Assembly: GCF_000026545.1 (NCBI RefSeq)
Contig: NC_011601.1
Length of the DNA stretch: 64,000 bases
From: Escherichia coli O127:H6 str. E2348/69
GTDB taxonomy: Bacteria; Pseudomonadota; Gammaproteobacteria; Enterobacterales; Enterobacteriaceae
Reading direction: 5' to 3' (one strand)
Shown here: one piece after another, positions 6,001 through 9,000 of the stretch
Layout of the letters: each line of letters begins with the position of its first letter
Numbering within the stretch: position 1 is the first letter of the stretch
Program-made: the position numbers

Positions 6001-9000
6001 CGCAATGCCTGAAATAATTTTTTTGCAAATCACAAAGTCAATTTAATGAGCCTCGCGATGCGGGGCTTTTTTATGTCCGCAGTAAACGCGCATCTCACGC
6101 GCATATTAACGAGAGCCTTTCAGTAAGCGAGCCTGAGAAATGCCGTTATAGGTGGCGACCTCTCTCGGGCGGCTTTTCTGTGAGACAGGCTCACTTTCTA
6201 AAAGGTAAAGACGCTATGAATAATCATTCAGTTATTCCAGCCTTCGACTTCCGAGAAATGGTGCAAGCCAAAAACGGAGAGGTCGTTACCACATCCAGAA
6301 AAATTGCCAAGTACTTCGGCAAGCGACACGGTGATGTTCTCAGGAAAATCGAGCAGGTTAAGGCTGATTGCTCGCGTGAGTTTAGCCAACGCAATTTTGC
6401 GTCGGCTGATTATATCGATGAGCAGGGCAAGGTTCGCCCGATGTACAGCCTGACGAAAGATGGCTGGATCATGGTTGTGATGGGGTTCACCGGGAAAGCT
6501 GCTGCGGCAATCAAGGAGAGCTATATCGCAGCATTCAACTGGATGGCAGAGCAACTGAGCCGCCGCATGGCAATTGGCGAAGAAATGCAGCACCGCTACG
6601 CCATCAAAGAAACACGCTCAAAGCTGAAAGGTACGATCGGCAGTCGGTTAATGAACGAACGGAAGAAAGAGAAGCGTGTCCTGGCTGTCGAGCATGAATA
6701 CATTTTGCAGGTGACACAGCCTGAACTGCTGATTAATTGAAGATGTCATTACAAAGCCTATCTACGGGTGGGCTTGATAATGGCTTATACCCTGCACGGG
6801 ATAACTTAACTGATATCCCTTTTAACGGATAAAGGTATTCAAGCCTGACACATCATGCGCTGTATCGTCGCCGTATTCCCGCATTAACCATGATCGTAGC
6901 CCGACGGGGAATTCCTTCTGCGTGAGTGTGCGGGAATAATCAAAAACGATGCACACCGGGTTTTTACCGCGTTTATGATTCGTGGGTTTGTCCCTCATGC
7001 TCGCCAGTCCTGTGCGGGGGTGGAAGAAACAGGACGCTCACACAGATTCTTGTAGGTACGATGCTATTCCTTTCTGGATTATCCCGATGCCATTCATGCA
7101 GGGCGCTGTATCAGACGTTCGTCATGGCTGACGGGTCCTCCTGGTGGGGTGGCCTGCCACGGGGCGGGAGCGTCGCGGAAAAAGGCTAGTTTTTGAAATT
7201 TCATTCGTCATCACCACTGCTGTAATTGATTGATATTGCAGTAGTTTTATTTTTGCGGTGTCGATTTTGATTGTTTTTTGTTCATCACTAACACCGTTTG
7301 CCTAAAGTTGTTCGCAAGATGCATGTTTAAAACATTCTGGAGCGGGTATGGATCGAGAGTTAAAAAATCTGACGCTGAATATCAGTCAACTGGCGGCACT
7401 GTCAGGTGTACATCGCCAGACTGCTGCGGCAAGGCTGCAAAATCTACCCGTTGCAGGGGGGCATGAAAGCAACCTCAAGCTTTATCGGGTGGTTGATATT
7501 GTGTCGGCATTTCTGGCATTGCCACCGCCGGTTGCAGAAGGCGAAATGGACGCGCATGAGCGCAAAGCCTGGTATCAGTCTGAACGTGAGCGTCTTAAGT
7601 TCGAACAGGAAACGGCACAACTCATTCCGGCCAGTGATGTCAGACGGGAGTTTGCCATCTGGGCAAAAGCGGTCGTGCAGGTGCTGGAGACATTACCGGA
7701 TATTCTGGAACGTGACTGCGGTCTGCAGCCTGCCGCTGTGAGCCGTGTTCAGTCCATTATTGATGATCTGCGCGATCAGATAGCCCTGCGGGTGACTGAA
7801 GCAGGTGCGGATGATGAGGAGGAATTACAGCAGGAGGAGTAATGCTGAATCAGGAAACCGCAAAGGCAGCACGAACCGATTCAGGTTATATCCTTCGCGC
7901 ACCGAGACGAATGCGGGTTGCTGATGCCGTTGCTCAGTATATGCGGGTGCCCATGGGGGCCGGGAACTCAGTCCCGTGGGATCCGCTGGTGGCACCGTAT
8001 GTTATTGAGCCGATGAACTGCCTGGCCTCGCGTGAATACGACGCAGTGATATTTGTTGGCCCGGCACGAACTGGCAAGACTATCGGCCTGATTGACGGCT
8101 GGGTGATTTACAACGTGATTTGCGATCCTGCGGATATGCTGATCATTCAGATGACGGAGGAAAAAGCCCGCGAACACTCCAAAAAACGACTTGCCAGAAC
8201 GTTTCGCGTCAGCCCGGAAGTGGTCAGTCGCCTGAGTCCGAACAAAAATGACAACAACGTTTATGACAGAACATTCCTTGCTGGCAACTACCTGAAAATC
8301 GGCTGGCCGTCAGTCAATATCATGTCCTCATCAGATTATAAATGCGTGGCGCTGACGGATTATGACCGTTTTCCGGAAGATATTGATGGCGAGGGGGATG
8401 CCTTCTCTCTTGCCTCAAAACGTACCACCACATTTATGTCCAGTGGTATGACGCTGGTGGAGAGTTCCCCCGGCAGGGATGTGAAGGATGTGAAATGGCG
8501 ACGGACTTCACCGCATGAGGCTCCACCAACCACGGGGATACTGTCGCTCTATAACCGTGGCGATCGCCGTCGCTGGTACTGGCCCTGTCCACACTGTGGT
8601 GAGTATTTTCAGCCCTGCGGCGATGTGGTTGCTGGTTTCCGTGATATTGCCGATCCCGTGCTGGCAAGTGAGGCGGCTTATATTCAGTGTCCTTCCTGTT
8701 CAGGACGGATTATGCCTGAACAAAAACGTGAGCTGAACGGACGTGGGGTCTGGTTGCGGGATGGTGAATCCATCAATGCGGATGGCAGTCGTTATGGTGA
8801 TCCCCGACGCTCACGTATTGCGTCATTCTGGATGGAGGGTCCGGCAGCTGCTTACCAGACACTCTCGCAACTCGTTTACAAACTGCTTACTGCAGAACAG
8901 GAATACGAGACAACCGGAAGTGAAGAAACACTCAAGACGGTTATCAATACCGACTGGGGATTACCTTATCTTCCCCGTGCCAGCATGGAGCAACGAAAAA

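What the first reader, a model, noticed from the sequence alone, without database searches (positions are those of the whole stretch)
6741..7347. About 600 bp non-coding stretch before the small terminase: presumed cos region, not resolved
No convincing ORF occupies 6741..7347, immediately upstream of the Nu1-like small terminase, which is where cosQ-cosN-cosB would lie in a lambda-type packaging system. A GC-rich stretch (GGGGCGGGAGCGTCGCGG near 7166..7183) loosely resembles the lambda cohesive end GGGCGGCGACCT but is not identical, so I could not place cosN.
Basis: inference. Interest (0 to 1): 0.2.

Follow-up and report, generated by a model that had tools for sequence, protein, structure and literature searches.

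The report
Lambda-type cos site, now resolved
The right-hand third of this gene-free gap is an ordinary lambda-style DNA-packaging (cos) site whose cutting point can now be placed to the base, and the rest is a widespread conserved non-coding segment of unknown role.

Summary
The gap is real. A Rha-family gene ends at 6740, the small terminase starts at 7348, and no reading frame between them behaves like a gene.

- cosQ GGGTCCT at 7133-7139.
- cosN at 7160-7175, read as CG|GGGCGGGAGCGT|CG, with a predicted 12-base 5' overhang at 7162-7173.
- An AT-rich I2-like spacer at 7179-7211.
- A cosB-like array: R3 7204-7217, IHF consensus 7223-7235, inverted R2 7257-7265, R1 7280-7289.
- The terminase start codon at bp 187 from the overhang's first base (191 in lambda).

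GenBank records of phages cdtI and Tritos begin exactly at GGGCGGGAGCGT. Left-half bases, CG flanks and cosQ follow published lambda-like cos rules.

Two corrections:
- The GC-rich motif lies at 7161-7178, not 7166-7183.
- The small terminase belongs to DUF1441 (Gifsy/Fels/mEp460 group) and shows no sequence similarity to Nu1. The large subunit is GpA-type.

The window is E. coli E2348/69.

Only about 215 bp of the gap is cos. The stretch 6745-7035 is a non-coding block at least partly matched in 4,333 of 5,426 complete E. coli genomes, upstream of four packaging-module types, with weak hairpin covariation. Its function is unknown.

The cos site is ordinary; the block is a modest lead.

The parts
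6741..7347 (.). Gene-free interval between the Rha-family gene and the small terminase
   Evidence: No annotated feature in the identical RefSeq sequence; no coding signal.
6754..6775 (+). Hairpin H-A just after the Rha stop codon (AAGCCUAUC-UACG-GGUGGGCUU). It marks the left edge of the conserved non-coding block.
   Evidence: -14.9 kcal/mol, z = -5.6. Relatives carry a different stem sequence at the same place. Ayreon's depositors annotated the equivalent as a terminator.
6855..7035 (+). Core of a conserved non-coding block, with hairpins at 6967-6985 and 7007-7035. Function unknown.
7133..7139 (+). cosQ, GGGTCCT, identical to lambda's 7-bp packaging-termination element
   Evidence: The element is described as highly conserved in PMC4669245. 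It lies 22 bp from the nick site, against 23 bp in lambda.
7160..7175 (+). cosN: CG | GGGCGGGAGCGT | CG. Predicted top-strand nick between 7161 and 7162, bottom-strand nick between 7173 and 7174.
   Evidence: Alignment to the lambda ends. The records of phages cdtI and Tritos end ...CCTGCCACG and begin GGGCGGGAGCGT. Unique in the window, 0 of 100 shuffles.
7162..7173 (+). Predicted 12-base 5' cohesive end, GGGCGGGAGCGT. Bases 1-6 are identical to lambda; it differs at positions 7, 8, 9 and 11.
   Evidence: Published rule that bp 7-12 vary (Gifsy-1 differs at 8, 9 and 11): PMC4669245.
7179..7211 (+). I2-like AT-rich spacer (bp 18-50) with A5 and T5 tracts
   Evidence: Sequence read. [quoted passage not shown] Partly alignable to lambda.
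7204..7217 (+). Candidate R3 small-terminase binding site, TTCGTCATCACCAC (bp 43-56)
   Evidence: A CAYCAY tract sits at the same distance from cosN in Fels-1, VT1-Sakai, CP-1639, LLS, yong2 and Chris1. Direct repeat with the R1 region. Inference.
7223..7235 (-). Candidate I1: exact IHF consensus, TATCAATCAATTA
   Evidence: One of only 4 matches in 64 kb. Among the sequences listed that share the window-type cosB, changes fall in the four N positions of the consensus. Consensus sites sit at the same place in CP-1639 and cdtI.
7216..7245 (+). Palindrome ACTGCTGTAAT-N8-ATTGCAGTAGT enclosing the IHF site, followed by a T-run. Terminator-like on the + strand.
   Evidence: z = -4.3. The arms co-vary among relatives.
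7257..7265 (-). Candidate R2 in inverted orientation (GGTGTCGAT on the + strand; ATCGACACC when read on the - strand)
   Evidence: The conserved TGTCGA(A/T)T element occurs across the DUF1441-terminase phages. In Fels-1 and VT1-Sakai the equivalent is a clear inverted copy of R3 (GATGATGAT). Inference.
7280..7289 (+). Candidate R1, GTTCATCACT
   Evidence: Direct repeat of the R3 core TCATCAC. GTTCAYCAY is conserved in relatives.
7348..7842 (+). Small terminase subunit, DUF1441 family
   Evidence: Pfam PF07278, 2.7e-41. PHROG 141, terminase small subunit, 7e-74. 100% identical to the small terminase of phages Ayreon, phi458 and vB_EcoS-569R4.
7842..9944 (+). Large terminase subunit, lambda gpA family
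   Evidence: Pfam GpA_ATPase 8.5e-72 and GpA_nuclease 1.1e-85.

Best explanation
Window 7133..7347 is the cohesive-end site (cos) of a lambdoid prophage of E. coli E2348/69. It belongs to the Gifsy/Fels/mEp460 packaging lineage.

Proposed mechanism, by analogy with lambda:
1. Dimers of the DUF1441 small terminase bind the R3, R2 and R1 sequences of cosB, with IHF bending the DNA between R3 and R2.
2. This positions two GpA-type large subunits on cosN. They nick the top strand between 7161 and 7162 and the bottom strand between 7173 and 7174.
3. Virion DNA therefore carries a 12-base 5' overhang, GGGCGGGAGCGT. Its left end begins at 7162.
4. Packaging runs rightward through the terminase and head genes.

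What is shown here: the sequence elements, their spacing, their conservation, the terminase families, and the agreement with the ends of deposited phage genomes.

What is inferred: the nick positions in this particular prophage, the R-site assignments, and IHF use.
For: **Alignment to lambda.** Local alignment to the joined lambda ends lines up cosQ, the CG flanks, bases 1-6 of the overhang, CGCGG and part of I2.

**Deposited genome ends.**
- The records of phage cdtI (AB285204) and phage Tritos (OV696610) begin exactly at GGGCGGGAGCGTCGCGGAAAAAGGCTAGTTTTT and end ...CCTGCCACG. The sequences match the window through cosN.
- Hafnia phage yong2, which has a related small terminase, starts at bp 13 (CGCGGG...) and ends with its overhang.
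- Phage LLS carries an annotated 12-base cohesive end (PMC12315714).

**Published rules, all met** (PMC4669245):
- cosQ is invariant.
- The CG dinucleotides flanking the nicks are conserved.
- Bases 1-6 are conserved and bases 7-12 are free to vary. [quoted passage not shown]

**Chance.** The composite pattern is unique in the window and absent from 100 shuffles.

**Terminase.**
- The large subunit is GpA family.
- The small subunit is PHROG 141 / DUF1441.
- It is 100% identical to that of phages deposited under their own names.

**cosB.**
- An exact IHF consensus lies at bp 62-74, one of 4 in 64 kb. Variation among relatives is confined to its N positions.
- A CAYCAY tract lies at bp 43-56, an inverted element at bp 96-104 and a direct repeat at bp 119-128. 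They parallel the unambiguous R3 / inverted R2 / R1 of Fels-1 and VT1-Sakai and the published R3-I1-R2-R1 layout (PMC9026076).
- The distance from cosN to the start codon is 186 bp here and 190 bp in lambda.

**Small-terminase fold.** The model has a beta-helix-helix-wing N-terminus. Its best PDB match is the 72-residue chain 6hn7_B, an entry from the study of packaging redirection by E. coli pathogenicity islands (PMC6739421). MerR-type winged helix proteins follow. These matches are weak.
Against: - There are no physical end data for this prophage, and nothing found here shows whether it is inducible.
- I could not read the cdtI paper or the Vahanian et al. 2017 survey of cosN. The record starts of cdtI and Tritos may therefore have been set by homology to lambda rather than by experiment.
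- The cosQ-to-nick spacing is 22 bp, against 23 bp in lambda.
- Only 8 of the 16 cosN positions are rotationally symmetric, against 10 in lambda (counted by hand from the sequences read).
- Position 7 also differs from lambda and from Gifsy-1.
- The R2 candidate matches R3 at only 6 of 8 bases.
- The R-site assignments were made after looking at the data.
- The fold matches are not significant (best E = 0.12; none at or below 0.001).
Confidence: 0.88

Rival explanations
1. The site is a decayed cos in a cryptic prophage. The sequence is recognisable but is no longer cut or packaged.
For: Many E. coli prophages are defective. K-12 DLP12 keeps a lambda-type cos next to the truncated packaging genes nohD and aaaD. 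Gifsy-2 in LT2 has a deviant sequence at the cosN position. No induction data were found for this prophage.
Against: - cosQ, both CG flanks, the overhang and the first 33 bp after it are identical to those of phages cdtI and Tritos, which are deposited as phage genomes.
- The small terminase is 100% identical to that of phages deposited under their own names.
- The small terminase, large terminase, portal and protease-capsid fusion genes are all annotated as intact CDSs, none flagged as a pseudogene.
- The cosB elements are intact compared with phi458 and 569R4.
Confidence: 0.08
2. The gap hides a small unannotated gene, either the 58-aa minus-strand ORF at 6822..6998 or the 87-aa plus-strand ORF at 6926..7189. 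The conservation would then reflect coding.
For: Several phage records annotate one or the other as a hypothetical protein. 73 database proteins match the minus-strand ORF.
Against: - There is no third-position bias (21/18/21 variable columns).
- The minus-strand ORF is broken by a frameshift or stop in 6 of 12 homologues, and its start is replaced in a seventh.
- Hits vary from 35 to 91 aa and are all close DNA relatives.
- The minus-strand ORF has no Pfam or PHROG family. The plus-strand ORF has no Pfam family, and its best PHROG hit covers only its last 21 residues, which are translated from around cosN.
- The plus-strand ORF would be cut in two at cosN, and an 8-bp copy-number change shifts its frame.
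- PGAP annotates nothing here.
Confidence: 0.03
3. The prophage packages by a headful (pac) mechanism or an HK97-type cos mechanism, and the lambda-like string is coincidental.
For: The conserved block upstream also occurs in phages with HK97-type packaging (HNH plus terminase), such as Stx2 phage 1717.
Against: - The large terminase has both GpA domains.
- There is no HNH gene between Rha and the terminase.
- The full cosQ-N22-cosN pattern is unique in the window and absent from shuffles.
- Related phage records are opened at this sequence.
Confidence: 0.01

Closest known systems
Bacteriophage lambda cos (cosQ-cosN-I2-cosB with R3-I1-R2-R1)
   Same: - The 7-bp cosQ is identical.
- The CG flanks are present and bases 1-6 of a 12-base overhang are identical.
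- CGCGG follows the overhang, then an AT-rich I2.
- There is an IHF consensus between a direct and an inverted repeat.
- The terminase start lies about 190 bp from cosN.
- The large subunit is GpA-type.
   Different: - The overhang differs at positions 7, 8, 9 and 11.
- The cosQ-to-nick spacing is 22 bp rather than 23 bp.
- The R sequences are unrelated (TCATCAC-type against CGTTTCC-type) and lie closer together.
- The small subunit is DUF1441, with no sequence similarity to Nu1 (E = 20).
cos of the Salmonella phages Gifsy-1 and Fels-1 and of E. coli phages with DUF1441 small terminases (cdtI, Tritos, mEp460, mEp213/LLS, VT1-Sakai, CP-1639)
   Same: - Same small- and large-terminase families.
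- cdtI and Tritos have the identical cosQ...cosN...bp 33 sequence.
- Gifsy-1 is reported to differ from lambda at positions 8, 9 and 11, as this site does.
- A CAYCAY R3 tract lies at bp 44-57, followed by an inverted element and then GTTCAYCAY.
   Different: - This site has one further change, at position 7, relative to what is reported for Gifsy-1.
- mEp460 has G at position 12.
- The cosB of cdtI and Tritos diverges completely after bp 33, and their small terminase is only 42% identical. This is the same kind of specificity split as between lambda and phage 21.
Phage N15 and PICI 'simple' cos
   Same: cosQ and cosN are lambda-like, and the large terminase is GpA-type (PMC9026076).
   Different: N15 has a single R3 and no IHF site, with the terminase start at bp 89. 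Here there are three repeat elements plus an IHF consensus, with the start at bp 187.

Membership tests
Lambda-like cos (12-base 5' cohesive ends; Feiss definition, PMC4669245) | 12-base 5' single-stranded extension on virion DNA | not testable with these tools
   This needs virion DNA. The only indirect support is that the cdtI and Tritos records start at GGGCGGGAGCGT and that yong2 starts at bp 13.
Lambda-like cos (12-base 5' cohesive ends; Feiss definition, PMC4669245) | Significant identity to the lambda cohesive end, with the left half (bp 1-6) conserved | tested here: met
   GGGCGGGAGCGT against GGGCGGCGACCT: 8 of 12 identical, including all of bp 1-6.
Lambda-like cos (12-base 5' cohesive ends; Feiss definition, PMC4669245) | Conserved 5'-CG-3' dinucleotides flanking both nick positions | tested here: met
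   CG at 7160-7161 and at 7174-7175.
Lambda-like cos (12-base 5' cohesive ends; Feiss definition, PMC4669245) | 7-bp cosQ upstream of cosN | tested here: met
   GGGTCCT at 7133-7139, 22 bp before the nick. Lambda has the same heptamer 23 bp before its nick.
Lambda-like cos (12-base 5' cohesive ends; Feiss definition, PMC4669245) | AT-rich I2 segment between cosN and cosB (about bp 18-50) | tested here: met
   7179-7211 reads aaaaaggctagtttttgaaatttcattcgtcat, with A5 and T5 tracts. GC drops to 0.34 over 7200-7299.
Lambda-like cos (12-base 5' cohesive ends; Feiss definition, PMC4669245) | Complex cosB: R3 - IHF site - inverted R2 - R1 | tested here: inconclusive
   The IHF consensus is exact and well placed. 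The repeat elements are present by analogy with Fels-1 and VT1-Sakai. The R2 match is imperfect and no binding data exist.
Lambda-like cos (12-base 5' cohesive ends; Feiss definition, PMC4669245) | Adjacent GpA-family large terminase | tested here: met
   PF05876 and PF20454.
Nu1 small terminase family (Pfam Phage_Nu1, PF07471) | Sequence membership in the family | tested here: not met
   The only family above cut-off is DUF1441, PF07278. BLASTP against lambda Nu1 gives E = 20.
Nu1 small terminase family (Pfam Phage_Nu1, PF07471) | N-terminal MerR-like winged helix-turn-helix DNA-binding domain followed by long helices | tested here: inconclusive
   AlphaFold model, pLDDT 74: E9-11, H12-19, H23-30, E45-47, H48-56, then three long helices. 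Best Foldseek hits are 6hn7_B (an entry of the pathogenicity-island packaging study) and MerR-family proteins, all with E at or above 0.12.
HK97-type cos packaging | HNH endonuclease gene next to the terminase genes | tested here: not met
   There is no HNH ORF or annotation between Rha and the terminase. Phage 1717, which shares the upstream block, does have one.
Any Rfam RNA family | Covariance-model match | tested here: not met
   Nothing relevant even at E up to 10. No tRNA.

The most novel reading that the evidence does not exclude
The left two thirds of the gap hold a conserved block at about 6745..7035, with its core at 6855..7035. The most novel reading is that this block is a functional structured element of the late transcript, or a DNA site, that marks the junction between the lysis and packaging modules in lambdoid phages. 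It would then be more than a neutral recombination 'linker'.

The block is non-coding. At least part of it is matched in about 80% of complete E. coli genomes. It lies upstream of at least four unrelated packaging-module types. It folds better on the sense strand and has stems that keep pairing through T-A / G-C / G-U exchanges.
Probability: 0.25. Interest if true: 0.45.

Novelty: new member of a known kind. Interest (0 to 1): 0.14.

Why it matters
Placing cosN to the base gives the expected virion DNA ends and packaging direction for this EPEC prophage. It also gives the same information for the many E. coli prophages that share the GGGCGGGAGCGT end.

This helps in four practical ways:
- setting the start of phage genome records;
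- spotting assembly artefacts at genome termini;
- predicting which prophages or satellite elements could be cross-packaged;
- reading the orientation of Chi sites.

It is not a conceptual advance, because the system follows the lambda rules. The cosB repeats, paired with differences in the recognition helix between closely related DUF1441 small terminases, could serve as a second lambda/21-style model of packaging specificity.

The upstream conserved non-coding block is the only part that might repay new experiments.

Tried and rejected
- **Global alignment to lambda.** A global alignment of the gap to the joined lambda ends gave nonsense. A local alignment worked.
- **Small ORFs in the gap.** Rejected on codon-phase statistics, broken frames and the lack of families.
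- **Known RNAs.** Rfam searches at E up to 1 and up to 10, and a tRNA scan, found nothing relevant.
- **Literature search for the overhang.** A full-text search for GGGCGGGAGCGT found only unrelated eukaryotic papers. Strings from the conserved block found nothing.
- **Key papers not held.** The cdtI paper (Asakura 2007) and Vahanian et al. 2017 on cosN natural history are not in the library. I could not confirm how the cdtI ends were determined, or whether this exact cosN is already listed.
- **Tritos paper.** It does not discuss the ends of Tritos.
- **Papers on the block.** A search for papers on an sRNA between Rz and the terminase, and one on the E2348/69 prophages, gave nothing useful.
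- **Chance pattern matches.** Six IMG/VR hits to the loop motif (L032, L035, L038, L096-L098) lie in unrelated coding contexts. I dropped them as chance matches.
- **Chi reading of the loop.** I considered a Chi-like reading of the block's loop (GATGGTGG against Chi GCTGGTGG). I did not pursue it: it is not an exact Chi, and the window copy is GGGGGTGG.
- **Lambda gpA comparison.** I do not rely on it; one search carries that claim.
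Full report
**1. The observation**

A Rha-family gene (Pfam Phage_pRha) ends at 6740. A 164-aa ORF starts at 7348 and is followed at 7842 by a 700-aa ORF.

The window is 100% identical to the chromosome of enteropathogenic E. coli O127:H6 E2348/69. NCBI's annotation of that sequence places no feature between the Rha gene and the '*DUF1441 family protein*'.

That is five bases left of the stated position.

**2. Is anything coding in the gap?**

Two ORFs deserve a look: 6822..6998 on the minus strand (58 aa) and 6926..7189 on the plus strand (87 aa). Some phage records annotate one or the other. Neither behaves like a gene.

- In a 12-sequence alignment, the variable columns fall 21/18/21 over the three codon phases.
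- The minus-strand ORF is broken by a frameshift or stop in six of the twelve homologues, and a seventh has 3 nt in place of its start codon.
- Its 73 database matches are all Escherichia or Shigella DNA relatives, with lengths from 35 to 91 aa.
- The minus-strand ORF has no Pfam or PHROG family. The plus-strand ORF has no Pfam family, and its best PHROG hit covers only its last 21 residues, which are translated from around cosN.
- The plus-strand ORF would be severed at cosN. An 8-bp copy-number change just upstream would also shift its frame.
- There is no tRNA and no Rfam match.

**3. The cos site**

A local alignment to the joined ends of lambda lines up three segments:

| Segment | This window | Lambda |
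|---|---|---|
| cosQ region | ACGGGTCCT | ACGGGTCCT |
| cosN | ACG\|GGGCGGGAGCGT\|CGCGG | ACG\|GGGCGGCGACCT\|CGCGG |
| Start of I2 | GCTAGTTTTTGAAATT | GCTATTTATGAAAATT |

In window coordinates this gives:
- cosQ GGGTCCT at 7133..7139;
- a CG flank at 7160-7161;
- the predicted 12-base overhang GGGCGGGAGCGT at 7162..7173;
- a CG flank at 7174-7175.

The composite pattern occurs once in the 64-kb window and in none of 100 shuffles.

Three kinds of outside evidence agree.

- *Deposited genome ends.* The GenBank records of phage cdtI and phage Tritos, from different laboratories, begin exactly at GGGCGGGAGCGTCGCGGAAAAAGGCTAGTTTTT and end ...CCTGCCACG. Hafnia phage yong2, with a related small terminase, is opened at bp 13 and ends with its overhang. 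Phage LLS carries an annotated 12-base cohesive end.
- *Published rules.* The Feiss laboratory's rules for lambda-like cos sites are all met (PMC4669245). cosQ is invariant, the CG flanks are conserved, bases 1-6 are conserved, and bases 7-12 are free to vary. [quoted passage not shown] This site differs at 7, 8, 9 and 11.
- *Enzymes.* The large subunit has both GpA domains.

**4. cosB**

Counting the first overhang base (7162) as bp 1, the layout is:

| Element | Window coordinates | bp from overhang start | Note |
|---|---|---|---|
| I2-like AT-rich spacer | 7179-7211 | 18-50 | matches the definition in PMC4856287 |
| TTCGTCATCACCAC (R3 candidate) | 7204-7217 | 43-56 | lambda R3 is at bp 50-65, N15 R3 at bp 48-60 (PMC9026076) |
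| IHF consensus TATCAATCAATTA, minus strand | 7223-7235 | 62-74 | one of four matches in 64 kb |
| GGTGTCGAT (inverted R2 candidate) | 7257-7265 | 96-104 | imperfect match to R3 |
| GTTCATCACT (R1 candidate) | 7280-7289 | 119-128 | direct repeat of the R3 core |
| Small-terminase ATG | 7348 | 187 | lambda Nu1 starts at bp 191 |

Among the sequences listed that share the window-type cosB, changes in the IHF site fall in the four unspecified positions of the consensus. CP-1639 and cdtI have consensus sites at the same place.

The reading as R3 / inverted R2 / R1 rests on analogy. In Fels-1 the three elements are unmistakable: CATCATCATCAT, then GATGATGAT, then TTCATCATC. The same holds in VT1-Sakai. 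CP-1639, LLS, yong2 and Chris1 keep a CAYCAY tract at bp 44-57, then TGTCGA(A/T)T, then GTTCAYCAY.

PhiR40_1 has a small terminase 86-88% identical to this one, with a different recognition-helix sequence. It also has different repeat sequences (TTCGACAT-type). This is the pattern expected of a lambda/21-type specificity pair. These assignments are inference.

**5. The small terminase**

It is DUF1441 / PHROG 141. It has no detectable sequence similarity to lambda Nu1 or to any PDB chain.

An AlphaFold model built from ten homologues (pLDDT 74) shows a strand-helix-helix-wing-helix N-terminus followed by long helices. The best Foldseek match is the 72-residue chain 6hn7_B, from the study of packaging redirection by E. 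coli pathogenicity islands. MerR-type winged-helix proteins follow. All have E of 0.12 or worse.

So the protein probably works like Nu1, but it is not a member of the Nu1 sequence family.

**6. The rest of the gap**

Positions 6745..7035 form a separate mosaic block.

*Distribution.*
- At least part of the 607-bp gap sequence is matched in 4,333 of 5,426 complete E. coli genomes, with a median of two places per genome.
- The block lies directly downstream of whatever gene ends the lysis region: Rha here, Rz in VT1-Sakai, other genes elsewhere.
- It lies upstream of at least four packaging types. These are true lambda cos (phage 2B8, L027, L045), this cos, the CP-1639 variant, and HK97-type HNH plus terminase in Stx2 phage 1717.
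- K-12 DLP12 keeps a 109-bp piece between borD and ybcV.

*Signs of structure.*
- The block is non-coding (section 2).
- The plus strand folds better than shuffled sequence (z = -2.6). The minus strand does not (z = -0.7).
- Hairpin 6754-6775 is very stable (z = -5.6), and other phages have a different stem sequence there.
- Stem 6967-6971/6981-6985 (CCGCG/CGUGG) appears elsewhere as CUGUG/CGCAG, CACGUU/AACGUG and UCUC/GAGA.
- Stem 7007-7013/7029-7035 exchanges U-A, G-C and G-U at one position, around an invariant loop containing GGUGGAAGAAAC.

*Formal count.* On 27 distinct sequences, 97% of cells pair, against 36-55% when the partners are slid. The covariation score is 0.152, against 0.086 in shuffles (0 of 500 reach it).

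*Caveats.* I drew the structure from these same sequences, and they are closely related. The loop motif was also the search pattern used to collect most of them. I therefore treat this as a lead only, and the block's function is unknown.

Between the block and cosQ lies 7036..7132, a segment specific to the mEp460-type phages.

**7. Verdict**

It is a further member of the well-described lambda-like cos family, in the Gifsy/Fels/mEp460 lineage. The overhang is already used as the start of two deposited phage genomes. Interest is low.

What remains untested is the physical ends for this prophage, and whether the prophage is inducible at all.

Noticed in passing
window 6745..7035 (core 6855..7035): Conserved non-coding block at the junction of the lysis and packaging modules. 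At least part of the gap sequence is matched in 4,333 of 5,426 complete E. coli genomes, and the block lies upstream of four different packaging-module types. There is no codon signal. The plus strand folds better than the minus strand. Three stems keep pairing through compensatory and G-U changes (97% of cells paired; covariation 0.152 against 0.086 in shuffles). No Rfam family and no literature hit.
   Followed up: partly
window 7126..7132 and relatives (L014, L016, L004, L013): The octamer GGCTGTCA / GGCTGAC just upstream of cosQ varies in copy number. There is one copy here, two in 569R4, PhiR40_1 and mEp460, and three in Tritos.
   Followed up: no
L003 (phage Ayreon MF807953, last ~330 bases of the record): The Ayreon record has about 140 bp inserted exactly at cosN (...CCACGGGG[insert]GGAAAAAGG...). 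The insert includes a copy of part of the small-terminase gene. It looks like an assembly artefact at the physical genome ends. The CDS annotated there as 'putative late gene regulator' is probably spurious.
   Followed up: partly
L001/L005 (mEp460_4F5 LR595868 record ends): The record is opened 6 bases upstream of the predicted nick and lacks 3 bases inside the overhang (GGGCGGGAGCG---CGG). This is again suggestive of an end-related assembly problem.
   Followed up: no
window 7216..7254: The cosB palindrome plus the following T-run scores as an intrinsic-terminator-like hairpin on the sense strand (11 pairs, z = -4.3), just upstream of the terminase genes. It might insulate the packaging genes from read-through in the lysogen, or it may simply reflect the IHF site and its flanking half-sites.
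   Followed up: partly
L021 (Gifsy-2, NC_010393, upstream of its small terminase): At the position where relatives have CG|GGGCGG...|CG, Gifsy-2 of strain LT2 reads CACG GGTGGCTTCGGG CTCGCGGG. Its cosQ position reads GGTACTCC. This may be a divergent or a damaged cos.
   Followed up: no
L152 (E. coli K-12 DLP12, NC_000913 579009..579116): A 109-bp piece of the conserved block, 83% identical to window 6856..6963, sits in the borD-ybcV intergenic region. Nothing is annotated there.
   Followed up: no
window 7348..7842 against L016 (PhiR40_1): Two small terminases 86-88% identical differ in the putative recognition helix (HRQTAAARLQN against HRQTVVARLKN). Their cosB repeats differ in parallel (TCATCAC-type against TTCGACAT-type). 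This is a candidate natural packaging-specificity pair.
   Followed up: no
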